From assembly GCF_004010195.1 (NCBI RefSeq), contig NC_057719.1, forward strand, positions 48,343,896-48,407,895: a stretch of 64,000 nt of DNA. Reading direction: 5' to 3'. The DNA is from Chiloscyllium plagiosum (taxonomy: Eukaryota). The position numbers were made by a program, and so were the translations under genes. Positions 959 to 63,081 of the stretch are shown here, piece by piece. Position 1 is the stretch's first letter. Each line of letters starts with the position of its first letter. The notes under the pieces were generated by a model that ran no database searches, was not told the origin of the DNA, and saw nothing but the letters and a program-made list of their open reading frames with translations.

Positions 959-1179
959 AAAAACCAAAAAAACCTGCGGATGCTGAAAATCGGAAACAAA
1001 AACAGAATTTGCTCATAAAGCTTAGCAGGTGTGGCAGCATCTATGGAGAGAAATTAGAGTTAACATTTCGGGTTGAGTGAGTTCTGAGGAAGGGTCACGC
1101 GACCCGAAACATTAACTCTGATTTCTCTCAACAGGTGCTGCTAGACCGGCTCAGCTTTTCCAGCAATTTCTGTTTTTGT
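959..1179. mobile_element. Palindromic Penelope-derived mini-element with degenerate hammerhead motif
   Basis: Inverted arms (aaaaacagaatttgct.. / ..agcaatttctgttttt). CTGAGGA-A-GGGTC-acgc-GACCC-GAAAC at 1084-1110. Imperfect TSD atctgataatgt 947-958 / atctgcttatgt 1180-1191. Confidence 0.7.
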
Positions 1180-3941
1180 ATCTGCTTATGTTGCTAAGTC
1201 ACTGGTACAAAATATTTTTTACTTGCTTGATCTTTCCCAGCTAGACAAATACCAATGATAGGCCCTATAATTCAGGCAGTGAATGGTGAATCAGAAGTTA
1301 AAGAGAAGCGCACCCATTGCAGGAATTTTTCTGGTTACCTGATGCTATTCTCAGTGGCACTGGGACAAGTTAAACAATACTTTATAGCTTCAGCATCCTA
1401 TCAACCCTGAACTTGTTTGACTCATATCCTTACATTCTAAAAATACTCTGTTGTCACCCTTGTAAAATTGTCAGTCACTATACCTCCTGTAGGCTGTCTG
1501 GAGCTGAAACACTCTTTCATGCTTTTGTCACTCCAATGTTCTTTTGCCTACCAAGTTCCATAAAACTAAGCTCAGCTAAACTATTCTATGCATAAACTAG
1601 CACCACTCACCCATCACTGGTTCTGCTGGCAGACTACAAAGAGGTTAACTTTAAAATTTTATCCTTGTGTTTCAGTCCCTTAATGATTTTACCCTTTGTA
1701 AAACTACAAACAAAACTAAAAACATGCCAAATTATGGTCTCAGTGTCCCATGGCTGGGGATAAGAAGATTGACCTGTATACATTTGCCTAATTGCTTTTC
1801 TGTGGCTGCTTCTTGGAGTATATATGTGTGTATATGAGGTCATACTCAAGCTGAAATGTTCGAGATTCAACTGTCAAATAGTCTGCCAAAGTGTCCTTGC
1901 TTATGGGAAAGTAAAACATAGAGAAGGAAAATGCTGTTTTTGCCTTGTTTATACTTTTGATTAAAAAAAACTATTTAAAAGAATGTGAACAGTTTTGCAT
2001 TGGACTGTTATTAACTTGAATCAGTTCTATATTCTTGCTGATGTAGTTCACTGCACATTCCCATTAATTTTTCTTATGTTTATCTGAATGTTGTTTTGCA
2101 CAGTTTTGCTTGACTTCCTGATAATTCAAATCTCAGGATCAAGTCAGTGAAGAATGTACCAACTGCGTACAAAGTTTACATTTCAGTAGAATCACTGGTT
2201 GGCTATCAAAATTAAGGGAGCAATGTCCATCTGATAAAGAATTCAGTAAAAATTGTCATCGGTTTCCTAAATGGGGACAGCACAACTATGGAACATGAAG
2301 CAATGGAAATATAGTAAAATTATACATATGAAAGCAACAGTAATGAAACTAGGAATTTAATTAATTATTTAAATGTTACTCTCCAATAGCTAGCTTATCA
2401 GTCAGTGGCTAATGCCCTCTGTTTATTATTGATTACATCTACTGCTAATATTTTCCAGCTTCAAATAAAACAATAATAAAAATAGTTTACAAAATGTTTC
2501 TGCTGGAAAGTTATGGTGTGGAGTACAGTAACACTATAAAGGGCACACAAGGATCTAACAATCTGATGTATATCCGTTGTGTCTATATGCATGCATTCAG
2601 CTCTTTTTTTCAAAGCAGAAGTTTCACTTTTCTCTGAAACTTCTCATTTGTTGAAGACATTAATCCTTGTTTATTTCATGGTTTATATTGTTCTTGTTGA
2701 TTTCTGGTACCTCAGCAAAATGACCATTCTTTGTATGTAAATTCAAATGCAAATAAAAATTAGCCACAGAGGATAAACACAGCCAAGTTGGATTGGCAAT
2801 AGATCTGCACTGTGCAATTGTAGAAAAATGAGTTGTAGTGAATTTCCATGGAGATAAAAATCAAGAATATGTAAAATGTATAACCCACATGCTAACACCT
2901 GTTTTAAATGATCACACAAAGTTAAGATTTATCCCGTTGTACTCTCAGAGGACATATATATACATTTTTGGCAGCAATCACTTAATGATGACATAGAAAC
3001 AGGACAAATACTGATTCTGTCCCTACCCACAGGATCAAACTGGCATTAAACATTGACTGATAAATTAGCCATTGGGGAATGAAATTTCAGTAATTAAGTA
3101 TATTGCCAACTTCAATATTAGTTACTTTCAAGTATGCAACTGACTATTAATTTTACTATATTTCCATTGCTTCACATTCCATGCAAACTGTTCAGCATCA
3201 CCCAACCTCAGTTAATCAGGATAGCAATTAGTGATGGGGAGTCTAATTGATTTTCTTCATGCTAAGCCCATTAATGCTTCCATATGGAGATCAACTATGT
3301 TAGTGCAAACTGGAGATCAAACCTTCGATTTTATTGGTGTGCATAGGTACACACACAGTGACATGATACTGACGTTTACATTGAGACTGGCAGCTTTATT
3401 AATTTAAAGCTAAAACTAAAACCTAAAAATAAAATAATAAAGCAGTGTAAACAATGTCTGTTTTTGTATTTTAAAAATGCAATAACACCATAGAAATAGA
3501 GTTTGTTTGTCAGGTAAGGTATTTTTTAAAAACTGGTTGTCCCAGGAGTTTAGAATTTTACTCAGTCTGCCAGTAGTTGAAGTTTGAAACTACTTTATCA
3601 TTTACTTTCTGACAATGCATTTAGAAAGATATTCCCTTTTATTTTTGCAGTGACTTAACAAGTGGAATAAAACATGTTTGTAGTTTTGGGCTGCTGCTCA
3701 TTTCAAAATGAATGCAATGCAAGCTGCCTTGGTTTTGCTGTTATTAAAGTAATTTCTCAACTTCTGTTTCATTGAAGTTTCAAGATCTTTTATAATTGTT
3801 AATAGTAAGAATGCAAGGTAGGGACTGATGATCACTGAACGACTTATAAAAAACACTACTCCTAAATGTGTAACTGAATAAACAGAGATCGGTCCATTGT
3901 TTCTCTAAATATGAGAAGCATAATTACAAAAAAAATTCTAG

Positions 3942-4632
3942 TTTTATTTATTTATTGTCATGTGTATCTCATTATAAAATACAGTGAAAGGTGTTGGATA
4001 GTGTTGCCACTCCCTGAAGCCATTTTAAAACACAGAAAAATAAACCAAAACATAGAATATAAAGGCAGAAAAATGAAGAAATAAAAAAAATCCAACTTTA
4101 CAATGCTTCTTGTTAAGTGCTCTGGATTGGTTCATGGGCCTTGTGGCCAGGCACAGGTCTCTCTTCAGCACCATCTTGCCCCCACCACCAATGCCGCCGG
4201 GTACTACACCATCCAAAACTCGACTCTGCTGCTGTCTGCTCCGGGCCCACCTCGACAGTGCAACTGCTGCTGATGCTGCTAGCTATCATACTGGGCCCAA
4301 ACCCGCCACCCCGCCACCTCCTTGAATCTGCTGGATGCAGGCGCCACTGGGAATCCAAACTTGCCTCCGCCACAGCAGCCATGAGTCAGTGCTAGGATCA
4401 CCTTGATGATGAAAAAGCCGACAAGAACCCAAACCCGCCTCTGAAGCCACTACCATAAGTCCAGGCTACTGGGCCCACACAAGTGTGTGCTGCTGATGCT
4501 GTTACCATGACCAAGCTCTTCAACAAGACATAAATAAAATGAAATTTAAATAGTGAGGGAAAAAAGTAAAAGAAAAGCAGGTGGAGTGGATGAGCCCCAG
4601 GCTCAGAAGCCCTACTCCTCCACCATCTTAGC
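3942..4632 (-). mobile_element. Non-autonomous retroelement with Rex1/Babar-like 3' tail
   Basis: Homologous to 45350-46040. The minus-strand end TTCACTGT...TGACAATAAA(TAAA)n resembles the LINE tail at 21236-21290. No ORF. Confidence 0.55.
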
Positions 4633-4689
4633 AAAAAACAATTTACAAATCATCTTTTACATCAAATATCCATTTTTCAAATTCTAGCG

Positions 4690-5040: not shown

Positions 5041-5109
5041 CCATTTAATGATTGTGTTAGTGAGAAGATTGTAGTTTCTAACTATTATATGTTATTTACA
5101 ATTTTAGAT

Positions 5110-8611: not shown

Positions 8612-10966
8612 TTTAAAATTCTGAATTGGAGAATTACCAACTTTGATGGTACTGGACAATAACTTTTTAAAGTTGATTGGGAGAAGCTATTCACAGGAAA
8701 AGAGATGGTTTGTAAAGTGGGAGCCCTTTAAAAAATAAGATAACGAGAGTCTAGAGGCAGTGTTCCAGTTATGGTGAAGGGTGAGGCTGAAAAGTGTGGG
8801 GAATGCTGGATGACTAGAGAAATTGAGGCTCTGGTTAAGGAAAAGAAGGAGGCATTTGTCAGGTACAGACAGCTGGAATCAAGTGAATCCCTGGAGGAGT
8901 ATAGGGCAGTAGGAGTATACTTGAGGGAAATCAGGAGGGCAAAATGGGAAATGAGATAGCTTTGGTAAATAGCATTAAATGTATTTGTAGAATCTCCGTA
9001 GGAGTAACCAGGGAGAGAATAGACCCCCTTAAAGATCAACAAGACCATCTATGCGTAGAACCACAGGAGATGGATGAGATACTAAACAAATATTTCATGT
9101 CAGTATTTACTGAGAAGGATATGGAAGCTAGAGAACTTAGGGAAAAGATAGCAATATCTTAAAGTGTCCACATTACAAAGGAAGTGCTGGATGACTTAAA
9201 ATGCATAAAGGTGGATAAGACCCCAAGACCTGATCAGGTGTGTCCCAGAACTTTGTGGGAAGCTAGGGAATTACTTGCCAGGCTTCTTGCTGAAATATTT
9301 GTATCATCAGTCGCCACAGGTGATGTGCTGGAAGACTTGAGGTTGGCTAATGTGGTGCCATTATTTAAGAAAGGTGGTAAGGAATAGCCAGGGAATTACT
9401 GACTGGTGAGCCTGACATCAGTGATGGGTGGGTTGTTGGAAGGGATTCTGAGGGACATGATTTACATGCATTTGGAAAGACAAAGACAGATTTAGGGTAG
9501 TCAACATAGCTTTGTAGGCGAAAGTGAGGACTGCAGATGCTGAAGATCAGAATCAAGATTAGAGTGGTGCTGGAAAAGCGCAGCAGGTCAGGCAGCATCC
9601 GAGGAGCAGGGAAATGGAAGTTTAGGGCAGGAGCCCTTCATTAGGAAACATTCCTGATGAAGGGTTCCTGCCTGAAACGTCGAATTTCCTGCTCCTCGGA
9701 TGCTGCCTGACCTGCTGTGCGTTTCCAGCACCACTCTAATCTTGGCATGTGAAATTGTATCTAATTAACTTCATTGAATGTTTTGAAGAAGTAAGAAAGA
9801 TTATAAAGGCAGAGCGGTGTACGTTGTCTTTATGGACTTCAGCAAGGCTTTCGACAAAGTTCCGCATGGTTTACTGATTAGCAAGGTTAGATCACATGGA
9901 ATTCAGAGAGAACTAGCCATTTAGATAAAGTTAGCTTGAAGGTGGGAGACAGAAGATGGAGGTGGACGCCTGTGATCAGTGGTGTGCTGCAATCACTGCT
10001 TTTTGTCATTAATATAAATGATTTGGATGTGAATGTAGAACGTGTAGTTAGTAAGTTTGCAGATGATTCCAAAATTGGTGGTGTAGTAGAATAGTGGAGA
10101 AGGTTATCTCAGAGTATAATGGGACCTTGATCAGATGGACCAATGGGTTGAGAAATGGCAGATGAAGTTTAATTTACATAAACACGAGGTGTTGCACTTT
10201 GGTAAGGCAAATCAGGGCAGGATGCATACATTTAATGGTCGGGTTCTGGGGAGTGTTGCTTAAAAACAAGAGACCTTGGGGTTCCTTGAAAGTGGAATCC
10301 CAGGTATACAGAGTAATGAAAAAGGCATTTAACACACTTGCCTATATTAGTCAATGCATTGAGTTTAGGAATTGAGATGTCATGTTGCCGCTGTACAGGA
10401 CATTGGTTAGACCACTTTTGGAATACTGTGTTTCATTCTGGTCTCTGTGCTATAGGAAAGATACTGTTAAACTTGAAAGGATTCAGAAAAGACTTACAAG
10501 GATGTTGGCGTGATTGGAGGGTTTGAGCTATAGTGAGAGGCTGAATAGGCTGGGGTGATTTTCCTTGCAACCTCAGAAGCTGGGGGGTGACATTATAGAG
10601 GATTATAAAATAATGAGGGTCAGGGATTGGGTGAATAGCTAAGGTTTCTTCCCAGAGTAGGGGAGTCAAAAACTAGAAGGCATAGGTTTAAAGGAGAGGA
10701 GAAAGATTTAAGAGGAACCTAAGGGGCAACCTCTTTCATGCAGAGGGTGGTGCATGTATGGAATGAGCTGGCAGAAGAAGTGTGGAGGCTTGTACAATTA
10801 CAATATTTAAAAGACATCTGGGTGGGTACATGAATAGGAAGGGGTTGAGGGATATAAGCCAAATGCTGGCAAATGGGACTAGGTTAATTTTGGATATCTG
10901 ATTGGAATGGATGAGTTGGACTGAAGGGTTTGCTTCTGTGCTGTACAAATATATGACTACGACTCT
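8612..10966 (+). mobile_element. CR1 LINE ORF2 pseudogene (interrupted at 9518-9744)
   Basis: Motifs DKTPRPDQVCPRTL, RLANVVPLFKKG, DFSKAFDKVPH, KFADD. 3'UTR ends atgactacgactct. Confidence 0.9.
9518..9744. mobile_element. Palindromic Penelope mini-element with hammerhead motifs
   Basis: Inverted arms aagattagagtggtgctggaaa.. / ..tttccagcaccactctaatctt. CTGATGA..GAAACGTC at 9654-9681 (+), with a decayed copy on the minus strand. Confidence 0.8.
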
Positions 10967-17930: not shown

Positions 17931-18889
17931 GTGTCGTCCATAGATGCTGGTAGATGTGGTCAAATTCTATCCCATTTAGCACAGTGATGGTGCCATACTA
18001 TGCACAGTAGGGTTTTCTCAATGTCAAAATAGGACTTAATCTCCAAAGGACTGTCTGTTACTGATACTGTCATGGAAAGATGCATCTGCGTCAGACAGGT
18101 TAGTGAGGATGAGGTTAAGTACGTCTTTCACTCTTTTCTTTAATTCCCTCACCATCACCTTCTGAAACCAGTTATGACCTTTTATGGCAGTTTTGGAAGA
18201 AGAGTCATACTGGACTTGAAACAGTAACTCTGTTTCTCTCACAACAAAGGCTGCCAGACCTGGTGAGTTTCTCTAGCATTTTTTGCATTTATTTTATTAA
18301 GGATTGGTTTGTATTGATCATAGTGGACAGACAAACATGAATTTTGCAGATGAAGAAATGTGCATTTTATATATTTGAGAAGTGAGAATAATTAGTAGTT
18401 TGATTATCAACCTGCTGAATTATGTCATGAATGCTCCTTCCATAGCCAACAAGTTCTTGCACAGGGCTTGAATCATGAACTTCTAAATCAGAGTTAGGGG
18501 CATTACCAACTTGTCCCCAAGTCCTCTTAATGGCATACTAAAAGCTATGGGAAATATAAATCTGACTGTAGGGTTAGAGGATACAAATTCAAATAATTAT
18601 CCATAAGTAGAATGCATGGAAAGAGTTAGTGGAAGTAAAAATGCTAAAATTAATTATGATGCAATTGGATAATTACAGTAGATGCCACACTGTGTGTCTT
18701 TCTCAATCAACTAAGATTGATCTTTGTTATCCATATTTATTAGAAAATAGAAAATGTATAGTTCTTGATGTTAACCCTGCCTACCAACTAATTACTGAAT
18801 TAAACCACAAAATTCAATTTATGTATTATTTGCTATTTTCATCTTCCTGAATTTATAAAGAATCTGATACTCCCCATAGTTTCCATTTT

Positions 18890-22458: not shown

Positions 22459-22784
22459 ATTACTTCTATTGACCATAAAACTTAAGAACGAGTTCATGGA
22501 ATACAAAAGAAAAATCTGTATTAAATGAAATATGGAAAAGTTATGAAGGTTATGACAGACTAAAGCTATTCATGATACATTATCTGGAACATATTCAAGA
22601 TTCTCATTGTGTCCAGACAGGAAAATTATGTCTTTAAAATTTGAACCTTGTAGAGGAATATGCCATGAGTAATATTACCTATATTGCTGTTTACATCATC
22701 CTTTTTTATTCTTTCATAGGATGTGGGCATTTGCTGGCAAAGCCAGCATTTGTTGTCCATGCCTGATTAGCCTTGAACCAACTC

Positions 22785-23175
22785 TTACATTGCCACAATG
22801 AACCAAACTGCAAATTGGAGGAACAACGCATCATCTTCCTCCTGGGCAGCCTACAGTCCGGAGGACTCAACATTGAGTTCTCCAATTTCAAATAAGTTCC
22901 TTCCCTTCCCCCAACTCCCTTCCCAACCCCTCCCGCTCCCTTCCACTTCTCCCAGCCACCTACCGGATTCATTTCTCCCGTTGAACAACCAGGTTGGACC
23001 CTCTGCCTGCCTTCACCTATCCCCACTTCACAACCCCGCCCCAGCCATCCCCTTTATGAGCAGTTCCCCTTACACCCACCCTAGTCCTGAAGAAGGATTA
23101 CACCTGAAACGTCAACTTCTCCATCTCCTGTTGGTGCCTGGCTTGCTGTGTTCTTCCAGCCTCCTGCTTTCTCTG
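22785..23175 (+). mobile_element. Penelope-like element (Neptune-type) 3' end: GIY-YIG C-terminus plus hammerhead-bearing 3' repeat
   Basis: LHCHNEPNCKLEEQRIIFLLGSLQSGGLNIEFSNFK*, a pyrimidine tract, then CTGAAGA..GAAACGTC at 23087-23113. Nested in a family-2 SINE (22705-23430, -). Confidence 0.82.
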
Positions 23176-23639
23176 CTAGACCATTGCAGCAAGCAGCTTA
23201 GAGTCAAACACATTGCTGTGGGTCAGGGATTACATGTAGGCCATTGCACGTCGGAAACAGATTCCCTTTCCTAAATGTCATTAATGAATGAGATGGGTTT
23301 TTATTAAATGATTGTTTCGTGTTCATCTTTTCTGGTACAAGCTTTATGTTTTGAGATTTATTAGTTGAATTTAAATTCTACCAACTAAGTATCTCGAATA
23401 TGACTAGTTCAAATTATCATTATGTCACCATCTCAATGTCCCGTTATCAATGGCAGCAAAACGTTAGAATTTGAAACACAAAAGTCAACAATTATGAATG
23501 AATATAGCACACTGTGCAAGGAACACTGTGCAAGGGTTTCTGTCTGAACCATGTGAGGAATAGGCAAGGGTTACCATTGCTTGGACAAGGATAGCTAAAG
23601 AGGAAAGACCAAAGGAAAGGTGAAAAGAAGATAAAACAT

Positions 23640-26200: not shown

Positions 26201-27414
26201 AGCCAAAAGAAATAATCAGCTAACTTAATTTTATTCACTGAGAATTAAAAGAATTAATGCATTATGAACTTTAGGCATATCTCATGATTATAAGTAGGAT
26301 TATTGTCATATCGTCACTCACTATCTGTATATTGCTGGGGCAGAAGCTTTTAGGATGTATTTGAAGATTGTTCTGTGGGAGCTCACAAAGCTAACTGGGG
26401 ATAACAAATGTATCCTAGATCATTAGTAGTCTGAAAATTTATAAACATTGAAATCCTGTTTACCCTATACTTGCTGCCATGCTGTGTCTTTAAACATAAT
26501 AAATTGCCAGATTCCTGTAAATTTGCAGAAGACCTGATTGCAACTGGTATTAAGGATTATCCATTGCAGCCTAGAACGACAATTTCCCGTGTGTTGATGA
26601 GCTCTGAAGTGGCAGTGAGAACAATGCAGGCTTGTTTGCCATCATGAAGTTGATGACAGAGCTGCCTTCCTATCGCTTTGGCAAAGTCCCCTGCACGTAT
26701 ACACATCTCCTTAGTGAGATCCTCATGTGAACTGTGTTGCCTCTATATTTAAAATGTTTGTGGAGGGGAAAGTGTAATATCTGATATAAACCACCTTACT
26801 TAAATCGTGCTTGGTTCTTCTGTGCTCTCGAGTTCCCCTATAACAATAATGATGGGTAGATGGGTATGCTGATTGGGAATGTTAATCTTGTCCTTACAGT
26901 GGAAGGTGACTGAATATCTGCCAGTCATGTGAACTAGTAGAAGCAGAGTGAAGCCAATACAAGGCAGAATCGAGAAACAATGGCTAAAAAAGAATATTCC
27001 ACATTTTTTTCTGTCAGAGGCACTTTGATTTCACCTGTCTAAGCTGGCCCTAACTTTCCCTGAGTGAGTGTATTGTAAGTATAAAAGCAGGAAATACTGA
27101 GCTACAGCATTAATAGTTCTTAATCGCATATTTAAATATGGAAATATAGGACTCAGTGGGCAGTTTACAAGATGAGGCAAAAAGAATGATGAATGTACAA
27201 AAGCAGTTTTCAGTTTGAAAACAATAAACATTAATTTTGCCTGATTTCTTTCCCACAAAGTGTATTTCCATTCATTATGCAAAGGAATTGCACTGAAAGT
27301 AATGAGGCAGTATAACCCCAAATTGCACAATACTGAAGTCATCAAGGTCTCAGCTGAAAATGTGTTGCTGGAAAAGCGCAGCAGGTCAGGCAGCATCCAG
27401 GGAACAGGAGAATC

Positions 27415-27442
27415 GACGTTTCGGGCATAAGCCCTTCTTCAG
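27415..27442 (-). ncRNA. Minimal hammerhead ribozyme motif (antisense twin)
   Basis: Reverse complement is CTGAAGAAGGGCTTATGCCCGAAACGTC. Confidence 0.75.
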
Positions 27443-27453
27443 GGCTTCCTGAA

Positions 27454-27495
27454 GAGATTCCTGAAGAAGGGCTTATGCCCGAAACGTCGATTCTC
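27454..27495 (+). ncRNA. Minimal type I hammerhead ribozyme motif (intact core)
   Basis: gagattc-CTGAAGA-A-GGGC-ttat-GCCC-GAAAC-GTC-gattctc. Stem I pairs 6 of 7, and the predicted cleavage is after 27488. Confidence 0.8.
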
Positions 27496-28644
27496 CTGTT
27501 CCCTGGATGCTGCCTGACCTGCTGCGCTTTTCGAGCAACACATTTTCAGCTCTGATCTCCAGCATCTGCAGTCCTCACTTTCTCCTCATCAAGGTCTCAG
27601 TAAACCTTAAGCCTGTGTGCCTCAAAATCATGGTAGTAAATAGTACAAGTCTAGAGCATGAAGCTAGAATAAATTCTACATGGCTTCTATGATAGAAATG
27701 TTTCATTTTTTTCTCCAAATGTTGATACTTATTTGCACTTTCAGTCAGCTCATGAAATCCTTTATTATTCTCCTCAAGAAACGGTCAGGATCTTTCAGCG
27801 TTATAACAAAAAATTCACTCATCTTCTATATGACAACATTTCAAATGCCTGTTCAGAAAAATAAAATGATTTGTGACAGAATGAAGATATTCTATTCAGT
27901 TATGTACATAAAACACTGGAACTTACCTTGAAAAAACATGACAGACTGCAGGCTTGTTGACACAAACTTAGTCTAGGAAACAGTTGCTGTGCTGGAACAG
28001 CTAGGCTCGTGGTTAACTTCAAATTAGGGTTACAAACCTTATTTACATTAGATAGTTACACTGCAGATTCCTGATGGGTGTCCTCAAGTAGCTTGCTGGT
28101 AAAGAGGATTTTAATTTTGGGTAGCAGTGTTGCCAACAGCACCCTTCAGGTGAGTCAAGAGAAGTGATCAGGAGTGATGTGGTTAGCCATGTGTGAAAGC
28201 GGAGGCGAGAGTAATAGAAAGGGGAATGACTGGTGCCTCACAATGGCTAAAGGAAGACCATTCCTGCACGTTCTATCTTCAAATTCAATCCTGTGAATTT
28301 TTAAAAATGCCGTTTTAGTGGCAAACTTCAGTGGGTGCTTTGGGGACTGCTTTAGGCTGCAATAAATACATCCAACTTTTCTTGCCATGTCATTCATTGG
28401 CAGATCTACAGGGCTTAATTCCTGTTGCAATCGTAATAACGCTTTGATAATCCTGTCAGCATGGTGATGGAAAATATTTTGTTATATTGTCTGTATTTTG
28501 ATGAATACATATAATGTTAGATTATGAAGACTTATTGAAATGTTTGTTTAGTTATATGTTTAATATATTTGTCCATTCTCTGACTAGATACATGATGTTG
28601 CTAATAATACTTTATACAAGTCAAATTGTATATACTTCAAGTAA

Positions 28645-28732
28645 TTCTAAGGAAGGGTCACTGGACCCAAAATGTTAACTCTGATTTTGCCAGACCTGGT
28701 GAGCTTTTCCAACAATTTTAGTTTTTGTTTAT
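28645..28732 (+). mobile_element. Penelope repeat fragment with decayed hammerhead
   Basis: ctaaggaagggtcactggacccaaaatgttaac, same family as 1084. Confidence 0.65.
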
Positions 28733-30041: not shown

Positions 30042-30257
30042 TAGACAAGCAGGAGGCTGGAAGAACACAGCAAGCCAAGCAGCATCAGGAGATGAAGAAG
30101 TTGACATTTCGGGTGTAACGTTTCTTCAGTCCTGAAGAAGAGTTTTACCCAAAACGTTGACTTCTCCACCTCCTAATGCTGCCTGGCTTGTTGTGTTCTT
30201 CCAGGCTCTTGTTTGCCTACCTTGGATTCCAGCATCTACAGTTTTTTTTTGTCTCTA
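30042..30257. mobile_element. Palindromic Penelope mini-element, decayed hammerheads
   Basis: TSD actaattatagaaagg 30026-30041 / actacttatagaaagg 30258-30273. CTGAAGA at 30132. Same family as 23087. Confidence 0.85.
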
Positions 30258-30584
30258 ACTACTTATAGAAAGGCTCAGAAAAGGCTCAGATAAATTTAAA
30301 AACATTTTCCTGCTTTTAAGATCCTTGTGAGGTAGAATGAGCAGAAATACCACTTTCTGCCAGTAATTCTTGGTCCTTCTTGCTGATGGGAAGTCAGTCT
30401 GGCCAGGTGTTGCCTCAGAGTCTGCGTTACAATGAAACTGTATCATTAAATTCAGACAGGCCTCCACATTCCCAGTGTTCATTGGTTCTTTGCCCATATT
30501 TGGGCTCCCTCACCCTGCCCTCCCATTAATATCAGGGCCCATGTATTCTCCTCTAAGTTTTATTGATACAAATGCTTCCAACAA

Positions 30585-34682: not shown

Positions 34683-34728
34683 CCTATTCAATAATAGAAT
34701 TGGCTGAATAGCTGTTTGGTTTCGATTC

Positions 34729-34756
34729 CTGATGAAGGGCTTTTGCCCGAAACGTC
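34729..34756 (+). ncRNA. Minimal hammerhead motif (intact core, weak stem I) in a single Penelope repeat arm (34724-34822)
   Basis: CTGATGA-A-GGGC-tttt-GCCC-GAAAC-GTC. Confidence 0.7.
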
Positions 34757-36420
34757 AGTTTCGCTGCTCGTTGGATGCTGCCTGAACTGCTGTGCTCTTC
34801 CAGCACCACTGATCCAGAACCTACTTAGTTAACATGCTTAGTTAACATACTTAGTTAACACCTCTCACCCCAGAATTTAGTGAAGTGGTATGATTTTAAA
34901 GATTATTAAAGGTCATAACCCAAATGTTTAGTTGCAGCCAACCTTCCAGCAGACAGGCAGCTAAATGCATAAAAAGCTATTGCCATGGAAAACTAGAATA
35001 ACCCTTGCAGAATATTACATCTCTGAAGATGTGGGTGCTAGGTGATAGGTAGATTTCTTGCATAGCTGACATACCTGGCATCATTCCACTGGTCTTCCCT
35101 TACACACAGGTAGGAAGATTTCAATTGGGAAACTTACTTATGTCACTTATTGTAAAAATACGTTTGTACATGCATTGCTACGGCAATTTTCATAATCACA
35201 GGACATCCTGAAGCAAATTGAATCTTTTTCAAGTGTAGTTAGTCACTGTTATAAAGCAGGAAATGGCACTAGGATAAGCAATTTGTATGACTTGTGCAAA
35301 AACACTTGACAGCCTAAATGCCAACTAAGTTAAAATTGGTGAAGAATTGCCAGTGTCATTAACTTTGTTTAATTATGAACTTTCCATGACCGCTGGAGTA
35401 CATCTGATCACCCTAGATAACAATTTCAATATGAATGCATCCAATATCTGACAGAGTATATACGAGAACTGCAAGAAATTGTTGCAAAACTGAAATCACC
35501 CAGCTTCTTTTTTTTGAATTGAGCCATGACTTAGTTCGATTGTTGGAAATAAAATCTGGTGCTTTTCCTTTGAGGTAAGAATTAATCACTTTTCACTATC
35601 CAGTATCCATGAAAATACATGAACAAAATCCAAGCTTTAATGTTCTGGAAAGAATGCAATGGAGATAGAAAGTATAATGATTTCAATATTATAGAATATA
35701 GGATACACAATAGAGCATCATGAGCTTAGAAAGAGCAAAGGAATACTGATTACAGTTATATTGATAAAATAGAGGAAGCAAAAAAAATTGCATCAGAGAA
35801 AAAGATTCAATGTTACAAATGATGAAGAGATCATTCTCTAAGCAATGCACTTTGTATTTGTATCATATTGTACAGAAAGGAGAAATAAACTGCACAAATT
35901 TGGGAGCAGTATTCAAGCCGTAAATGAGTTTGAAATTCAATGGTAATTGTTTAGTGTGAAAGGAGGTACTGGACTTCACCTTGAGTTAAAAGAATAACAA
36001 GAGATGAATGATGCAAGGATTGGGAAAAAAAAACTTTAACTGTCTTTAGCAAAGACTTAAGTTATTTATTTTAAACTGGCAAATTTGGTCAGATACATTT
36101 TAAACATTCAGACACTGCTATGCTATTTGGAATTTTGAAATGTCTCACTTTAGAAAGTCCTGTTCTAAGATCAGTGGGGTCACCGCCTTTTTCAGTGACA
36201 TTTATGCACGAGAGTCGTTCTGGATTTTTTTCTCATATATTCCCATTGTCATTTCAGTTTGTCTTTTAAAATAATAAGATAATTGGAAGGAAAGCTTTTG
36301 GGCTTTACAGTAAGATGACAGGTTGCAAAAGACTGAACTGCTGAAATCTGTAAAGAATACTGTTTAGTAATTCCTGCCTTGAAGATGTATAAAAACAAAA
36401 CTCTGACTTAATATGATAAG

Positions 36421-36610
36421 AGTCAAAAAGTGTGGTGCTGGAAAAGCAGAGCAGCATCCAAGGAGTAGGAGAGTCAATATTTCCAGCATGAAGGGCTTCT
36501 GCTCGAAACGTTGATTCTCCTGCTCCTTGGATGCTGCCTGACCCACTGTGCTTTTCCAGCGCCACACCTTTTGACTCTGATCTCCAGCATCTGCAGTTCT
36601 CACTTTCTCT
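36421..36610. mobile_element. Palindromic Penelope mini-element with 13-bp TSD
   Basis: TSD TTAATATGATAAG at 36408-36420 and 36611-36623. Decayed core atgaagggcttctgctcgaaacgtt. Confidence 0.88.
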
Positions 36611-39130: not shown

Positions 39131-39939
39131 GTAAAATGATCAGCACCACACCTTCAGCTGAAGGCAACGTTTCCGTCTCTGTCTCTGTAGATCCCAGTTT
39201 TGCTCTGAGGTGTTCTTGTTCCTTTGATTGCAGATCTCTCCCTCATTCTCTCTGCATTTGTCTCCCCCACCTCCTTTTGTATCTGCGTGTGTTCTCCCTC
39301 GCTCCATGGAAAGTACTAACTCTGAGCTATGCCTGCTCCGTTGTGTCCGTTCTGCCTGTTAGTACGCTTCGTCAACCGCTGAGCATGTCCTCTTTCTTCA
39401 GTGTTCCCTTTAAACTAACTTCTTATTGTTCTGTATTTGTCTTGACTTCTCTGCCTTTATTCTATAGACGTGTTTATTTCACTTTCTATGCACAAGGCCG
39501 CTTCACTTACCGATTTGTGTGCGCATTTCCCAATGCCTAAACTCCGCGCGTGCCCTTTTATCTTTGTGCAAATTGTTTGACTCTCTGAATGACCTTTTTC
39601 TGTATCTTTTCGTGTGAGTACCTCATTGTGATTTTCTCTGCAGCTGAACTGTTTTTTCTGATGCCGTGAGCGCTTGTGAGCTGGTCCCTATCGGATACAT
39701 GCCTTTTCCCCTCCAACTCTCTCTCTTTGCGCCTTGCTGACGGCCCAGTGTTTCTTCTAATTTATCGCTTTTGAGCCTAGCTAGTTTATTCCCAGCACAG
39801 TATCCCCAGGATCGCTGTGCATCATTGCAGGGAACAATAGTTGCCACTCTCATTCTGGTCCTGCCATTTCCCTCACCCCCTGCCATCACTTATGCCCCAT
39901 TCTTTGATTCAAACCTTATTTTTCATCTCTATTCTTACA

Positions 39940-40135
39940 CTATACCAGGTTATCGTCCAACAGGTTTATTTGGAGGCGTTAGCTTTCAAACCACTGCTTC
40001 TTCAACCATACAACCACTTGATGAAGAAGCAGCGCTTCTGAAGCTAGTGCCTCCAAATAAACCTGTTGGACTATAACCTGATGTTGTGTAATTCTTAACT
40101 TTAGTCCACCACAGTCCAACTACAACTGATCCAAA
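39940..40135. mobile_element. Old palindromic Penelope mini-element (GAAAGCUA-type hammerhead, decayed)
   Basis: Arms ccaacaggtttatttgga / tccaaataaacctgttgg. Same family as 62201-62414. Confidence 0.75.
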
Positions 40136-40740
40136 TTGTCCTTGCACTGACTGTCATGACTCACTATTTGCCATCTTCAAAATTTTTTTTGTTTCTTTAT
40201 GGCCTTTTTATGCAGTGAATTTGTATCTACCTCTTATTTCAATGCCACTTTACCCATGATTGTGTTTGCTCCTTGAAGTCTAATATCTGCTTTTATCCTG
40301 GCCCATTTGCCAATAGCTTATTTTATGAAAAAAAACTTGAAAATATTGTCTTTTTTTGCATTAGTTTGGACATATTTAATATTAAATAAAATGAAAGTCC
40401 TTTTAAAAATTACAATTCAATTCATTTTGAGAAGCCAAAAATTTCTGGCTTCTCATTGCATTGAAAGACATTTTATTTAAGTAACTTACAAAAAATGAAA
40501 ATTATGGTGATTTTTTTAAAAAGGTCTTCTGATTGCTCAGAATAATGTACTTCTGATATTTATGATATGATCGGACACAATAGTTATCAGAACAATCTCT
40601 TCATATTTCTAGGAGAGCAATTTATTTGTAATATTACAATGACCTGGATTTTCTAGTTCATGGTGAGGCATAGCATTTGTTGCTATCTTTCAAGAAAGCT
40701 GTTCACAAATCTGTACTGGTCTCTCTGCCATTGATTTTCT

Positions 40741-41330
40741 GTTGTGGTTCTGTTCGCCGAGCTGGGAATTTGTGTTGCAAACGTTTCGTCCCCTGTCTAG
40801 GTGACATCCTCAGTGCTTGGGAGCCTCCTATGAAGCGCTTCTGTGTTGTTTCCTCCGGCATTTATAGTGGTTTGTCTCTGCCGCTTCCGGTTGTCCGTTC
40901 CAGCTGTCCGCTACAGTGGCCGGTATATTGGGTCCAGGTCGATATGTTTCTTGATAGAATCTGTGGATGAGTGCCATGCCTCTAGAATTCCCTGGCTGTT
41001 CTCTATTTGGCTTGTCCTATAATAGTAGTGTTGTCCCAGTCGAACTCATGTTGCTTGTCATGTGTGTGTGTGGCTACTAAGGATAGCTGGTCGTGTCGTT
41101 TCGTGCCTAGTTGGTGTTCATGGATACAGATCATTAGCTGTCTTCCTGTTTGTCCTATGGAGTGTTTTGTGCAGTCCTTGCATGGGATTTTGTACACTAC
41201 GTTGGGTTTGCTCATGCTGGGTATCGGGTCCTTTGTCCTGGTGAGTTGTTGTCTGAGAGTGGCTGTTGGTTTGTGTGCTGTTTTGAGTCCTAGTGGTCGC
41301 AGTAGTCTGGCTGTAAGTTCAGAAATGTCA
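40741..41330 (-). mobile_element. Penelope-like element (Poseidon-type) 3' part: GIY-YIG endonuclease plus 3' repeat
   Basis: NVVYKIPCKDCTKHSIGQTGRQL..HEHQ..HEFDWDNTTII. Left arm of a large inverted repeat. Confidence 0.9.
40777..40816 (-). ncRNA. Minimal hammerhead motif (GUU site)
   Basis: rc: gca-CTGAGGA-T-GTCACCT-agac-AGGGGAC-GAAAC-GTT-tgc. Confidence 0.72.
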
Positions 41331-41513
41331 GACTACTACGACCACTAGGACTCATAACAGCACACAAACCAACAGCCACTCTCAGACAATAAATCACCAG
41401 GACAAAGGACCCGATACCCAGCATGAGCAAAACCAACGTAGTGTACAAAATGCTGAAAATGTGTTGCTGGAAAAGCGCAGCAGGTCAGACAGCATCCAAG
41501 GAACAGGAGAATC

Positions 41514-41541
41514 GACGTTTCGGGCATAAGCCCTTCTTCAG
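41514..41541 (-). ncRNA. Minimal hammerhead motif in the 3' repeat of a nested Neptune-type PLE (41452 to gap)
   Basis: rc CTGAAGAAGGGCTTATGCCCGAAACGTC, identical to the 27461-27488 core. Confidence 0.75.
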
Positions 41542-41627
41542 GTATGAGGAAAGTGTGTCCAGCAGGCTAAGATAAAAGGTAGGGAGGAGGGACTTGAGGG
41601 AGGGGCGTTGGAATTGCGATAGGTGGA

Positions 41628-42873: not shown

Positions 42874-43065
42874 CACAGAGTCATACATGATACTGCATAA
42901 ACAAGCCCTTCGGCCCAAAGTGGTCCATGCTGACCATGATGCCCATTCCACTTGTTTCAATTGCCCATATTTGGTCCACATCCCTCTAAACCCTTCCCAT
43001 CCTTGTACCTATCCAAATGTTTTTAAATGTTGCTATTGTACCTGCCTCAACTACTTTCTCTGGCA

Positions 43066-43159
43066 GGATTCGCAGTTTCGGTCACCCGAGACAGAAATGG
43101 AAAGGTCTAGGAAGGGGAGGGAGGAGTCTGATCTAGGAAGGGGAGGGAGGAGTCTGATC
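43066..43159 (-). mobile_element. PLE reverse-transcriptase fragment with 26-bp tandem duplication
   Basis: rc SDSSLPFLDLSISVSGD (LPFLD motif). The unit tctaggaaggggagggaggagtctga occurs at 43106-43131 and 43132-43157. Confidence 0.7.
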
Positions 43160-43543
43160 TAGTGTACAAAATCCCATGCAAGGACTGCACAAAACACTAC
43201 ATAGGACAAACAGGAAGACAGCTAACGATCCGTATCCATGAACACCAACTAGGCACGAAACGACACGACCAGCTATCCTTAGTAGCCACACACACACATG
43301 ACAAGCAACATGAGTTTGACTGGGACAATACTACTATTATAGAACAAGCCACACAGAGAGCAGCCAGGGAATTCCTAGAGGCATGGCACTCATCCACAGA
43401 TTCTTTCAAGAAACATATCGACCTGGACCCAATATACCGGCCACTGTAGCGGACAGCTGGAACGGACAACCGGAAGTGGCAGAGACAAACCACTATAAAT
43501 GCCGGAGGAAACAACACAGAAGCGCTTCACAGGAGGCTCCCAA

Positions 43544-43583
43544 GCACTGAGGATGTCACCTCGACAGGGGACGAAACGTCTGC
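43544..43583 (+). ncRNA. Minimal type I hammerhead ribozyme motif, intact, sense within PELI2 intron 1
   Basis: GCA-CTGAGGA-T-GTCACCT-cgac-AGGGGAC-GAAAC-GTC-TGC. 3-bp stem I, 6/7-bp stem II, GUC cleavage triplet ending at 43580. Confidence 0.82.
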
Positions 43584-45349
43584 AACACAAATTCCCAGCT
43601 CGGTGAACAGAACCACAGCAAGCTACAAATCTTCTCACAAACATTAATTTTCTGTTTCCTGACATCCTTTTAATTCAGGTGTCCAGTACTGGCAATGGTC
43701 ATCAAGTACATTAAGCAACTAATCTTAGTACAGCATAGCAGGAAGGAAGAAAAAGCAGATTGTTATTTTCTTCTCATTTACGTAGTGTTTGTTGTATTTT
43801 AAAAAAAACTGCAGAGTGCAATCATGTAGCACAGTGGAGAAATTTGACTTTCCACAAATTTAAAGTTAGTTTTAAGGCTGGACAGGTTTTTAAAAATATA
43901 TTGTTATCATTTTAAGATGTTGTGTAAAACCCAGTGTACATCATTCAACAAGGTGTAACCTTTTAAATGTTTTTTACAGCATAACTAATAGAGTAAAAAT
44001 GGAAGTTCATGTCAATTCAAGTGATTTCAGAAGATTATCAGTGATGAGGATTTCAACTGGAGAGTAACATGGAATTACTGATGGCAATGTTTAGATTTTC
44101 ATATTTATGCATGTGTGGATTATAGAGGTTGCTGTTAGTTTTACCATTGTAATGATTGTGAATTGATGCTGATAGTTTTGTAATCTTTGCAGTTTCAAAA
44201 TCTGGGCCAATATGGGTTAAACGTTCTATTTGCAGCTTGATTATTCAGTATTATTTACTTACTTGAAGGGCAACAGAAGCTTACAGTTGAATTTATCAAC
44301 AATTCCTTTTTAAAGATCAGTGGGTTTAGATCTATTATTGATCTTAAATATAGATTGTATTCTATTGCATAATAGAAACATTACTATCATGTAATTTTTA
44401 TCTTATTTCAAATTGTATATTTCTGAACCCGTAGATTTTCAGTTGATTGATAAGTTATCTTTTTGGAGTTATAAACAGTGCGTTGAAGGAATAAGCGTTT
44501 GTAAGATTTTCTGCAAGGTGGTCATTCACAAAACCTTGGGATTTTATTAATCTCCTTTAGAGTCTACTCAGTTTAGTTTTTCATCTTTTTTATGGAAACT
44601 TCTAGCTCATTACAATTAACACACCATCATATTTCTGCAGTATCATTTTACACACAACAGCAGAGTAGTTACCCCTGTCAGTCTAATGGAAGAAAGTTAG
44701 TTTCAAATAGACCAGGCAATAATTGGATTCGCTGGCCTTTAATTACTTTGAGCAAGGCCACAGTTGAAAAGTAGTATAATTGATTGGATCCTCTGAAGAG
44801 GATTTTCTTTTTGTCAAGTAAAACATGTCTAATTTCTACAAAGAATTGTTTGGGGCAAATATTATCTACAACATGATTGCAACAAAGCTTTTAAAGGGCA
44901 CTTTTTAAATAGACTTTAATGTTTCAAATATTAAAACTTTAGTGATAAGGACTTCTCAAAGTATTGAACTATTGAAATGGTACTTGAGTTGTGTAGAGTA
45001 CATTTACACTTATAACTTTTTGTTTGGAGTTGACAAAAGTCGTGAATTATCAAACAGAGTGCTCTATTTGGTTAAATTGCATTCCCGAGGGTTTCCTCAT
45101 TAACATTGTCAATGACATTGTGTTCAGAACTAAAGAAGTTTGTTTCTATTATTCACTCATGGGATGTGGGCATGACTGGATGGACAGCTGTTGCTAGTTA
45201 ACCTTAAGAAGATGATGGTGAAATGCCTCTTGAACCACTGTAGTTCTTGTTCTATACATGGGAGGGAATTCTAGGATTTTGACTCAGCAAAAGTGAAGGA
45301 ACAGCAATATATTTCCAAATCAGGATGGTGAGTGGTTAGATTGTAATGA

Positions 45350-57977: not shown

Positions 57978-57989
57978 TTCTCCTTGAAA

Positions 57990-58535
57990 ATAGTGTGTGG
58001 AGTTTTGGCCTCCCTCCTATCGGAAGGATATTGTGAAACATGGAACGGGTTCAGAAAAGATTTACAAGGATATTGTCAGGGTTGGAGGATTTGTGCTACA
58101 AGGAGAGACTGAATAGGCTGGGGCTGTTTTCCCTGGAGCGTCTGAGGCTGAGGGGTGACCTTATAGAGGTTTATAAAATCATGAGGGGCATGGATAGGGT
58201 AAATAGACAAGGTCGTTTCCCTGGGGTGGAGGAGTCCAGAACTAGAGACCATAGGTTTTTTAGGGTAAGAGGGGAAACGTTTAAAATGCTCCTAAGGAGC
58301 AACTTTTTAATGCAGAGGGTGGTATGTGCATGGAGTGAGCTATCAGAGGAAGTGAAGAAGGCTGGTATAATTACAACATTTAAAAGGCATCTGGATGGGT
58401 ATATGAATAAGAAGGGTTTAGAGGGATATGGGCCAAGTGCTGGCAAATGTGACCAGAGTAGATTAGGATATCTGGTTGGTATGGACAAGTTGGACTGAAG
58501 GGTCTATTTCCATGCTGTACATCCCTATGACTTTC
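57990..58535 (+). mobile_element. CR1 3' fragment
   Basis: ERVQKRFTR..LERLRLRGDLIEVYKIMRG. Confidence 0.92.
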
Positions 58536-58589
58536 TGTAATCCAGTAGCGTATCGTTGACTTGCTTACCTTGTTCCAACTAAATGCCTC

Positions 58590-59892: not shown

Positions 59893-60260
59893 CACGGAGG
59901 CTGAGGGGTGACTTTATAGAGGTTTATAAAATCTTGGATAGAGTAAACAGGGTAGGGGCGTCCAAAATCAGAAGGCATAGGTTTAAGTGAGCATGGAAAG
60001 ATTTCAAAGGGACCTTAGGGGCAATGTTTACACACAAAAGCTGGTGTGTGTATGGAATGACCTGCCGAGGAAGTGGTGGAGACTGGTATAATTATAACAT
60101 TTAGTAGGCATCTGGATGGTTATATGAATAGGAAGGGTTCAGAGAGATATGGATCAAATGCTGGCAAATGGGTGTAGATTAATTTAGAATATCTGGTCAC
60201 CATGGATGAGTTGGACCAAAGGGTCTGTTTCTGTGCTATATATCTCTATGACTTTATGAC
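59893..60260 (+). mobile_element. CR1 3' fragment
   Basis: RRLRGDFIEVYKI, then an atgact tail. Confidence 0.88.
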
Positions 60261-62200: not shown

Positions 62201-62414
62201 GACTTGGAGGTGCCTGTGTTGGACTGGGGTGGAAAAAGTTAAAAATTATACAACACCAGGTAATAGTCCAACAGGTTTATTTGGAAGCACTAGTTTTCAG
62301 AGCGCTGCTCCTTCACCAGGTGGAGAACCACCTGATGAAGGGGCGGTGCTCCAAAAGCTAGTACTTCCAAATAAACCTGCTGGACTATAACTTGGTGTTG
62401 TGTGGTTTTTAACA
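62201..62414. mobile_element. Palindromic Penelope mini-element (CTGATGA..AAGCTA hammerhead, decayed)
   Basis: TSD atgttcacatc 62190-62200 / atgctcacatc 62415-62425. CTGATGA-A-GGGGC-ggt-GCTCC-aAAAGCTA at 62332-62360. Confidence 0.85.
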
Positions 62415-62898
62415 ATGCTCACATCCAAATTATTCTGTCTTTGTCCATTTTGATAATTATATTAACACTAACTGACTTATGATCATTACCATCAACATGT
62501 GCTCCAATTGCCTCTTATTCCACCTAAAACTAAGTATGAGCCTATGCTCTCTCTTGCTGGGCTTCCTACATAATGTAACTCAATTCCTACAGACCAAAAC
62601 TAACCCAATTAATATTAGGATGGTTAAAATCTTCTATCAGTATCCTATTCTTTATTTTTTATTTGAAAATTGCGTACATTTTTTTGCTCTTCTATCTCTT
62701 TGACTGTTCAGGCATCTATCATACACTCCCAGCAGTTCCTTATGGCCTCATCTAACACATTGTCTCTTCTAATAACTGTAATTGTTTCTTTGTCCAAAAT
62801 TGTTATCCCCTATCTATCATGCCTGAAAATTCCAACCAGGACCATTGAGCTAATTCTGTCCTCTTTAAGACCTATTTCTGCAACAGCCATGAAATCAT

Positions 62899-63081
62899 CC
62901 GAGGAGCAGGAGAACCGACATTTCAGACATAAGCCCTTCATAAGCCCATCATTCCTGATTAAAGGCTCATGCCCGAAACATTGATTCTCCTGCTCCTCGG
63001 ATACTGGCTGGCCTGCTGTGATTTTCTAGCCCCTCAGTCTTGACTCTGATACACCAGCATCTGCAGTCCTTACTTTCTCCT
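62899..63081. mobile_element. Penelope mini-element with short inverted arm, decayed hammerhead
   Basis: TSD agccatgaaatcat 62885-62898 / agccatgatatcat 63082-63095. ctgattaaaggctcatgcccgaaac at 62955. Confidence 0.8.

What the first reader, a model, noticed from the sequence alone, without database searches (positions are those of the whole stretch)
959..63081. Window-wide repertoire of minimal hammerhead ribozymes from several Penelope families
Seen in the sequence: the hammerhead core CUGANGA-(extra nt)-stem II-GAAA-(loopless palindromic ACGU or AGCU stem III)-UH recurs over a dozen times. Intact cores are at 27461+, 27442-, 34729+, 40813-, 41541- and 43547+. Decayed ones are at 1084, 9654, about 18195, 23087, 28647, 30132, 36488, 40018, 62332 and 62955. 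Stem II differs between families while pairing is kept (GGGC/GCCC, GGGTC/GACCC, GTCACCT/AGGGGAC, GGGGC/GCTCC), which is covariation-like support. Established: PLE terminal repeats carry minimal type I hammerheads thought to work as dimers. Inference: roughly five ribozyme-bearing lineages have been active in this shark genome. Several decayed copies lost G12 in a way consistent with CpG decay of ..CCGAAA.
Basis: partly seen in the sequence, partly recalled or inferred. Interest (0 to 1): 0.72.

Follow-up and report, generated by a model that had tools for sequence, protein, structure and literature searches.

The report
Penelope hammerhead stubs across shark genome
The motifs are real: they are small hammerhead-ribozyme sequences carried in the ends of at least five families of Penelope-type jumping genes in what is likely a shark, a known arrangement; most copies here are broken stubs, and where the stubs begin suggests they were likely copied from the capped, uncut front end of the element's RNA.

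Summary
Confirmed, and a known kind. All 16 listed sites exist. The window holds 23 hammerhead-related arms at 14 insertions, nine of them head-to-head pairs. Eight strict cores occur against 0-1 in shuffles. Genome-wide there are about 220,000 exact cores against about 1,900 in reversed controls. Five families tie to Penelope-like RT/GIY-YIG ORFs: Poseidon-type B and Neptune-type A, C, D, E. A sixth (F) is unlinked. Between families stems I, II and III all change compensatorily, and CpG decay is confirmed. Corrections: only 3 of the 6 'intact' copies keep their family's stem I; opposite-strand pairs cannot dimerise in cis; the GGGGC/GCTCC stem is a decayed copy. Addition: family A 5' ends pile up 4 nt before CUGA (6,928 pattern matches), not at the cleavage site (390; control 328). 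An extra G often precedes them, at an initiator-like motif. This likely marks run-off from capped, uncleaved RNA. Poseidon B shows no such pile, and cleavage is untested. This scan has noted these elements in at least 16 genomes, and the cap reading in at least six earlier notes.

The parts
959..1080 (-). Family C arm with tail, 5'-cut inside stem II (no CUGA); head-to-head mate of 1079-1183
1079..1183 (+). Family C arm; core at 1084, stems I and II intact, stem III CpG-decayed
9520..9647 (-). Family A (older) arm with tail, decayed core at 9644
9649..9744 (+). Family A (older) short arm; core at 9654 intact, 4-bp stem I, stem II decayed to G-U pairs
18189..18293 (+). Family F arm, decayed core at 18194; 3' part resembles family C; no ORF link found
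22782..23181 (+). Family E 3' end: last 37 codons of a Neptune-type GIY-YIG ORF (22782-22895), about 190-nt spacer, core at 23087 with decayed stems
27352..27443 (-). Family A1 short arm, core at 27442 exact but cut at -1, so no stem I
27457..27586 (+). Family A1 arm with tail, core at 27461 exact, starts at -4 behind a G; the pair is flanked by a 15-bp target duplication (27339 and 27586)
28642..28731 (+). Family C solo arm, decayed (G12>A), internal deletion
30042..30129 (-). Family E short arm, decayed; mate of 30128-30266
30128..30266 (+). Family E arm with tail, G12>A; 11-bp target duplication (30031 and 30263)
34725..34822 (+). Family A3 solo short arm, core exact at 34729, starts at -4 behind a G, stem I broken
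36421..36610 (.). Family A head-to-head pair, both arms cut inside the ribozyme; 13-bp target duplication (36408 and 36611)
39933..40136 (.). Family D (AGCU stem III) head-to-head pair, decayed; arms 39933-40004 (-) and 40010-40136 (+)
40740..41328 (-). Poseidon-type family B left arm: GIY-YIG coding end, core at 40813 (GUU triplet), short 3' end
41329..41451 (+). Start of the family B right arm, split from its remainder by a later insertion with a 13-bp duplication (41439 and 43160)
41452..41627 (-). Family A1 3' end with native upstream sequence up to the assembly gap; core exact at 41541, stem I broken at -2
43160..43645 (+). Remainder of the family B right arm: GIY-YIG coding end, core at 43547 overlapping the element's start codon, tail
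62201..62413 (.). Family D head-to-head pair; arms 62201-62323 (-, with tail) and 62329-62413 (+, G12>A)
62880..63081 (.). Family A head-to-head pair, decayed; arms about 62880-62944 (-) and 62949-63081 (+, with tail)

Best explanation
These are the hammerhead-bearing pseudo-LTR ends of one Poseidon-type and at least four Neptune-type Penelope-like retrotransposon families, left as 5'-truncated and often head-to-head insertions; in the Neptune families the shortest copies were likely made by reverse transcription running off the capped 5' end of an uncut element RNA that likely starts about 4 nt before the ribozyme core. Shown: identity, family anatomy, two fixed 3' ends 35 nt apart, target duplications, compensatory stem changes between families, and the positions of the 5' ends. 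Inferred: transcription starts in the pLTR at an initiator-like motif; the RT-endonuclease primes at one of two sites about 90 and 125 nt downstream, as shown in vitro for the anole Poseidon (PMC11167929); priming on the RNA's front copy gives a 95-130 nt stub, priming on the downstream copy gives ORF-bearing copies; priming from both cut strands would give the head-to-head pairs. The ribozyme was likely functional in source elements, needing a dimer or the element's protein, but it is a passenger in these genomic copies. Odds: PLE minimal hammerheads 0.95; cap run-off 0.65; cleavage-competent source motif 0.7.
For: Full-length B copy L062: cores 2,503 bp apart around an 837-codon RT/GIY-YIG frame with three stops; the start codon lies inside the core and the stop in the next copy's loop II, like PAc. 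Neptune copies: L098 has RT (Pfam RVT_1 33 bits, above cut-off), a CxxC linker and GIY-YIG (21.2 bits, just under the 22.6 cut-off); L101 has cores 3,491 bp apart. Ten subfamily representatives: 81 of 90 pair cells paired, 7 of 9 pairs change on both sides, 0 of 20,000 column shuffles reach this; five-family subset 41 of 45. In a 1.26-Mb sample taken without regard to repeats, 79 of 216 family-A arms start at -8..0 and 5 of 216 at +24..+30, around the cleavage site at +28. Genome-wide patterns: start at -4, 3,719 + 3,209; at +28, 390; control +33, 328. G precedes 12 of 15 arms starting at -4, against 28 of 95 non-C bases elsewhere, p=3e-4. Of solo copies with a readable target duplication, 5 of 13 G-preceded ones carry a single G absent from the target and 1 carries GAG; 0 of 6 A/T-preceded ones carry any extra base. 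An untemplated G is attributed to cap copying in L1/SVA. TATAAA lies at -33 in C and -38/-40 in D; 28 of 28 non-reference C copies start at -6..0. 50 of 55 family-A pairs have one long and one short 3' end.
Against: No cleavage or transcription start was measured. The target-duplication test alone is weak (6 of 13 vs 0 of 6, p=0.063; one duplicated locus counted twice; 20 of the G loci were picked to avoid mirror joins, and so were all 20 A/T loci). About half of the first 100 listed matches look like mirror joins, where the base at -5 can come from the mate. Family C copies show no G enrichment by eye, and Poseidon B shows no pile: 22 of 30 run more than 70 nt upstream and only 4 of 30 end at -20..-34, where its TATA at -53 would place a start. 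A and E have only a non-canonical TTTATCT at -35. A shoulder of ends at +1..+12 (43 of 216) also fits stalling or joining at the hairpin. The most abundant subfamily (A1) and A3 have a weak stem I (2 bp, U-U, 1 bp), and the hammerhead fold is not the predicted minimum for A1, D1 or B1. The shuffle test ignores relatedness and the representatives were hand-picked. Clade names rest on motifs, not on a tree.
Confidence: 0.8

Rival explanations
1. Same elements, but the pile of 5' ends marks reverse transcriptase stalling or template switching at the ribozyme fold, not the RNA's start; the extra G would be terminal-transferase addition or microhomology.
For: Ends extend as a shoulder into +1..+12 (43 of 216). 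Many mirror joins fall in the self-complementary stem II or at AGG/GGA overlaps. In 7 of 13 G-preceded solos the G is part of the target. No clear G excess in family C.
Against: The peak is just past the fold (-4/-3) with a sharp fall upstream: 8.8 ends per nt at -8..0 vs 0.12 at -60..-9. All 5 single untemplated bases are G. Family B has a longer hairpin and no pile at its edge. An initiator-like motif and, in C and D, a TATA box sit at the expected distance.
Confidence: 0.2
2. The short copies are a separate non-autonomous family (non-LTR retrozyme or SINE-like) that spreads through self-cleaved, circularised RNA.
For: Very high copy number of 95-130 nt units. Retrozymes are argued to derive from PLE pLTRs and were found in the one cartilaginous fish screened.
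Against: None of the 14 window sites is a head-to-tail array. 5' ends avoid the cleavage site (390 vs control 328). Lengths run continuously up to ORF-bearing copies with the same two 3' ends. Half the arms are in head-to-head pairs cut at varying points.
Confidence: 0.07
3. Head-to-head pairs arise by self-priming on an antisense template, as proposed for rotifer Penelope, rather than by priming from both cut strands.
For: Proposed in PMC3846280 from palindromes at inverted junctions. Perfect palindromic joins occur here.
Against: 50 of 55 family-A pairs combine the two different 3' ends, matching two initiation sites and extension of both strands in vitro. Both arms often stop near the same -4 position.
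Confidence: 0.15
4. The motifs are chance matches or simple palindromes with no ribozyme ancestry.
For: Rfam gave no hammerhead hit; the motif is short.
Against: About 100-fold and 190-fold over reversed controls; fixed position in PLE pLTRs; compensatory changes in all three stems.
Confidence: 0.01

Closest known systems
[quoted passage not shown]
   Same: CUGANGA/GAAA core, extra base before stem II, G10.1-C11.1, loopless palindromic stem III, short stem I, several consensus families per genome, many single or opposite-strand copies; reported in fish Poseidon, Neptune and Xena, coelacanth and Xenopus.
   Different: No shark in the parts read. Counts here (about 220,000 exact cores) far exceed the 4,000 and 9,000 reported for coelacanth and Xenopus, though the descriptors and genome sizes differ. 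Stem II is 4-5 bp in the Neptune families.
PAc, Poseidon of Anolis carolinensis (Frangieh et al. 2024, PMC11167929; parts 1-2 of 4 read)
   Same: Family B has the ORF start inside the hammerhead, two 3' ends about 35 nt apart and tandem pLTR-ORF-pLTR units. Uncleaved RNA as the main template fits the absence of ends at the cleavage site in family A.
   Different: PAc cleavage was shown (protein-assisted); here it is untested. In Neptune family A the likely start codon lies about 160 nt after the core (inferred). The parts read do not map a transcription start or a cap-derived G.
EN+ PLE insertion anatomy: Adineta vaga Pen2a (PMC3846280, passages) and Craig et al. 2021 (PMC8557442, passages)
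   Same: Inverted 5' partner, 30-40 bp tail on one arm, target duplication, TATA and initiator-like motifs in the pLTR; CX2-5CxxC linker as the Neptune/Nematis mark.
   Different: Here most insertions are reduced to about 100-230 bp stubs cut at the ribozyme's front edge.
Non-LTR retrozymes (bioRxiv 10.64898/2026.07.22.740005; part 1 of 5 and passages)
   Same: Type I hammerheads derived from PLE pLTRs, non-coding.
   Different: Retrozymes are head-to-tail arrays; the window copies are solo or head-to-head.

Membership tests
Minimal type I hammerhead (PLE type) | CUGANGA and GAAA core with NUH triplet | tested here: met
   8 strict cores in the window; all 10 subfamily representatives, chosen for an exact core
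Minimal type I hammerhead (PLE type) | Extra base between A9 and stem II, and G10.1-C11.1 pair | tested here: met
   Extra base in 10 of 10; G-C in 9 of 10, G-U in one CpG-decayed copy
Minimal type I hammerhead (PLE type) | Loopless palindromic stem III | tested here: met
   ACGU in A, B, C, E; AGCU in D; both self-complementary
Minimal type I hammerhead (PLE type) | Short stem I closing the motif | tested here: met
   3-4 bp in A2, C, D, E, B; 2 bp + U-U + 1 bp in A1 and A3; missing or broken in 3 of the 6 'intact' window copies
Minimal type I hammerhead (PLE type) | Covariation across families | tested here: met
   7 of 9 pairs change on both sides; 81 of 90 cells paired vs 50.6 in shuffles; hand-anchored, relatedness not modelled
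Minimal type I hammerhead (PLE type) | Self-cleavage as dimer or with protein help | not testable with these tools
   Needs a bench assay; no genomic excess of ends at the cleavage site
Rfam hammerhead families | Match to a covariance model | tested here: not met
   No hammerhead hit at E<=5; that Rfam models need a full stem III is recalled, not checked
EN+ Penelope-like element | Single ORF with RT then GIY-YIG | tested here: met
   L062 and L098; RVT_1 above cut-off in both, GIY-YIG 21.2 bits vs cut-off 22.6 in L098, no Pfam hit for the window's family B fragment
EN+ Penelope-like element | pLTR-ORF-pLTR tandem with a hammerhead in each pLTR | tested here: met
   B: L062, L057, L060; A: L101, L112. 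Not shown for C, D, E, F
EN+ Penelope-like element | Inverted 5' partner, 30-40 bp tail, target duplication | tested here: met
   110 of 216 A arms and 51 of 90 D arms paired; two 3' ends; clear duplications at 3 of 12 window sites tested and around the B pair
Neptune clade | CX2-5CxxC linker between RT and endonuclease | tested here: met
   A (L098), E (L335), D (L081); C only shown to share the endonuclease C-terminus, 43% over 37 aa in one locus
Neptune clade / Poseidon clade | Placement in an RT phylogeny with named reference elements | not tested
   No named reference PLE proteins were fetched
Poseidon clade | No zinc linker; ORF start inside the hammerhead as in PAc | tested here: met
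   L062 translation against the PAc description
Non-LTR retrozyme | Two or more head-to-tail units each with a hammerhead | tested here: not met
   0 of 14 window sites; the genome was not screened for arrays

The most novel reading that the evidence does not exclude
Neptune-type Penelope elements start their capped transcript on the first base of hammerhead stem I. The ribozyme is then a switch at the mRNA's very front: uncut, capped RNA is the template for retrotransposition, while cleavage removes the cap with the first 32 nt and diverts the RNA to decay or cap-independent translation. The hundreds of thousands of shark stubs are strong-stop-like run-off copies that record the start site, the cap and both priming sites of each family.
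Probability: 0.45. Interest if true: 0.6.

Novelty: new member of a known kind. Interest (0 to 1): 0.33.

Why it matters
The catalogue itself is expected: PLE pLTRs are known to carry minimal hammerheads in fish and amphibians. Its value is as material. What the PLE hammerhead is for is still open, and this genome offers about 220,000 exact cores in six families with natural compensatory variants, plus thousands of insertion junctions. The junctions argue against cleaved RNA being the template and point to a start site at the ribozyme's first base, which turns an open question into simple assays (5' mapping, cleavage of six natural variants with and without protein).

Tried and rejected
Rfam scan: no hammerhead hit; the miRNA hits are artefacts of the palindromes. 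A two-mismatch descriptor was not above chance and was not used. Pile-up of 5' ends at the cleavage site: tested and not found. MAFFT shifted the three D rows by one column, so the alignment was dropped and pairs were counted with hand anchors on the two core boxes. Sequencing runs: no RNA holder listed. Four runs were laid on a family A1 copy. One raw RNA run gave 1,861 reads on both strands with no place where many molecules begin or end, one gave none, and two were contigs. Loose ends at -4 only repeat the genomic boundary, so this says nothing on cleavage or start site. A start-site pile in Poseidon B was sought and not found. No ORF link was found for family F; the joint C/F search returned almost only C copies. 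The main paper on dimer cleavage of PLE hammerheads (PMC5785218) was not held; it is cited only through a review's passage. Literature searches that found nothing on shark PLE hammerheads or on a cap-derived G in PLEs: (listings only; open-licence library, supplements and Repbase/Dfam entries not seen). No phylogeny and no covariance model were built.
Full report
Check of the observation. Every listed site carries the motif. A strict descriptor finds 8 cores in 64 kb against 0-1 in twelve random sequences of the same dinucleotide make-up. BLAST with the window's own copies extends the list to 23 arms. These reduce to 14 insertions: nine head-to-head pairs and five solos. The 40813-/43547+ copies are one pair, whose right arm was later split by an insertion with a 13-bp duplication. 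In the whole 3.56-Gb genome the exact ACGU-type core occurs 168,415 times (reversed control 1,637) and the AGCU type 52,077 times (control 277); one 28-mer alone occurs 33,157 times. Rfam has no hit for it. Nearest named proteins are from Chiloscyllium punctatum at 85-89%, which fits a carpet shark.

What the families are. Positions are counted from the C of CUGA as 0. Family B (40813, 43547) follows a GIY-YIG coding end in the window. A full-length genomic copy, L062, has two cores 2,503 bp apart around an 837-codon RT/GIY-YIG frame with three stops. Its start codon is formed by A9, the extra U and G10.1, and its stop lies in the next copy's loop II. This is the layout of the anole Poseidon PAc. 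Family A (ten arms plus subfamilies A1, A2, A3 and older ones) lies about 240-320 nt after a GIY-YIG end. L098 shows RT, a CX4CxxC linker and GIY-YIG in one open frame, and L101 shows the tandem. E is a relative of A (42-65% over the endonuclease) and D a distant one (28-35%), both with the linker; C shares the endonuclease's last 37 residues in one locus. The linker marks Neptune and Nematis; I call them Neptune-type without a tree. F (18194) resembles C downstream but was not tied to an ORF.

Is it a ribozyme fold? Ten subfamily representatives with exact cores, anchored by hand on the two core boxes, give 81 of 90 paired cells. Seven of 9 pairs change on both sides, and no column shuffle of 20,000 reached this (mean 50.6); one representative per family gives 41 of 45. 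Examples: stem I AUUC/GAAU (A2), GUC/GAC (E), AGUU/AACU (C), CAC/GUG and UAC/GUA (D), GCA/UGC and UCA/UGA (B); stem III ACGU against AGCU. Within family A, subfamily differences in the motif fall at N7, loop II and one stem I position, while decay hits the three CpGs (75-82% kept against 91-100%; 120 arms). Against: A1 and A3 have a U-U mismatch in a 4-bp stem I, and the hammerhead fold is the predicted minimum for only 3 of 6 representatives. The test does not correct for relatedness. Published relatives cleave weakly, as dimers or with protein help.

State of the window copies. Only 27461+, 40813- and 43547+ keep core, stem II and family stem I. Paired arms lie on opposite strands, so they cannot form the dimer in cis, and a read-through transcript of the 27353-27586 pair is predicted to be one long hairpin (-194 kcal/mol). 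These are fossils, not a working repertoire.

Where copies end. In a 1.26-Mb sample (window, its flanks and twelve arbitrary stretches), 366 arms were found, about 300 per Mb and 4% of bases. Family A has two 3' ends, near +90 and +125, and 50 of 55 pairs combine one of each. Its 5' ends are not random: 79 of 216 lie at -8..0, peaking at -4 and -3; 43 lie at +1..+12; 5 lie at +24..+30, where a cleaved template would end. Genome-wide patterns requiring three non-native bases upstream give 6,928 starts at -4, 390 at +28 and 328 at a control position +33. The patterns differ in subfamily scope, so the ratio is approximate.

The extra G. G precedes 12 of 15 well-preserved arms that start at -4, against 28 of 95 non-C bases elsewhere (p=3e-4). 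Genome-wide it is 3,719 G to 3,209 A/T in a genome of about 21% G and 59% A+T, while 10 of the first 100 control matches have G (by eye). About half of the listed matches in both classes look like mirror joins, so I read junctions directly in 70 loci: 50 G and 20 A/T, 40 of them chosen to avoid such joins. Forty were paired and 11 solos had no readable duplication. Of the 13 G solos left, 5 have one G that is absent from the target, 1 has GAG and 7 have the G in the target; of 6 A/T solos none has an extra base (p=0.063). Untemplated G at full-length L1 and SVA ends is attributed to copying the cap. The native sequence at -4 resembles an initiator (TCATTC in A, TCAGTT in C; consensus recalled). 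TATAAA lies at -33 in C and -38/-40 in D, with a weaker TTTATCT at -35 in A and E (the TATA check followed an earlier scan note). All 28 non-reference C copies start at -6..0, and 28 of 90 D arms at -12..0. Results against: no G excess was visible in C, and Poseidon B has no pile (22 of 30 extend beyond -70). RNA runs were uninformative.

How it most likely works. Shown: the anatomy above. Inferred: the pLTR promoter starts a capped RNA at the first base of stem I; the element protein primes at one of two sites downstream of the ribozyme, as PAc does in vitro; copying from the RNA's front gives stubs that run off the cap, and copying from the downstream pLTR gives longer truncated copies; priming on both strands gives head-to-head pairs. 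The ribozyme was kept under selection in source elements, but the inserted copies came from uncut RNA, in line with PAc. If it cleaves, it would remove the cap with 32 nt; ribozyme-linked cap-independent translation has been reported in viral UTRs (passages), which is only an analogy here. In Drosophila virilis Penelope an intron begins 46 bp after the start and ends at helix I, so its ribozyme also sits near, though not at, the front.

Comparison and novelty. It is a member of the known class of PLE minimal hammerheads on every feature I could test; activity could not be tested. It is not a retrozyme array. Searches found no paper on shark PLE hammerheads or on a cap-derived G in PLEs, but repeat libraries and supplements were not seen, and one cartilaginous fish was screened for retrozymes in a 2026 preprint. 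This scan has met these elements often: 155 notes in at least 16 genomes, and six notes reach the same cap reading. I had reached it before looking; their agreement is not independent support. Papers: PMC4209133 and PMC11167929, parts 1-2 of 4; the 2026 preprint, part 1 of 5 and passages; PMC8557442, PMC3846280, PMC3287187, PMC6765202, PMC2377424 and PMC13725137, passages only.

Verdict. Real, correctly interpreted and of a known kind; interest 0.33. The start-site and cap reading is the part worth testing.

Noticed in passing
window 15207-16487 (-): A 426-codon open frame that reads like a Tigger/pogo-type DDE transposase (recalled resemblance, not searched).
   Followed up: no
window 41452-43159: Nested insertion inside the Poseidon pair: A1 3' end, 626-bp assembly gap (41628-42253), a decayed Gypsy-like RNase H fragment (about 42254-42880), a LINE-like tail and a short Neptune RT fragment with a 31-bp tandem duplication; bounded by a 13-bp duplication.
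   Followed up: partly
window 5385-5978, 10475-10958, 33224-33592, 58037-58532, 59897-60253, 61263-61935: Many 3' fragments of CR1/L2-like LINEs and associated SINE-like repeats on both strands (family names recalled).
   Followed up: no
one search hit list (query window 43162-43434): After sharks (69-89%), the next named relatives of the Poseidon endonuclease are from Schistosoma (46-52%); could reflect patchy sampling or old horizontal transfer.
   Followed up: no
L106:~3329 and ~3578 (oriented); G000:C1:2619545 and 2619751; G000:C2:115761992 and 115762090: A few same-strand hammerhead pairs 98-249 bp apart; candidates for retrozyme-like dimers or local duplications.
   Followed up: no
G000:C1:944837, 1182987, 1228685; L023, L154: Further Poseidon-type hammerhead subfamilies with 7-bp stem II variants, not present in the window.
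   Followed up: partly
L097 and L098, about -22..-14 and +72..+80 from the core: Sequence upstream of the A1/A2 core is partly complementary to sequence after the ribozyme, with an apparent compensating difference between subfamilies; seen by eye, not tested.
   Followed up: no
L101:~403-700: A family D head-to-head insertion sits in the 5' end of a full-length family A3 element.
   Followed up: partly
window 37991-39540: GC-richer stretch with two open frames of 148 and 173 codons, possibly a host gene's first exon or promoter; not examined.
   Followed up: no
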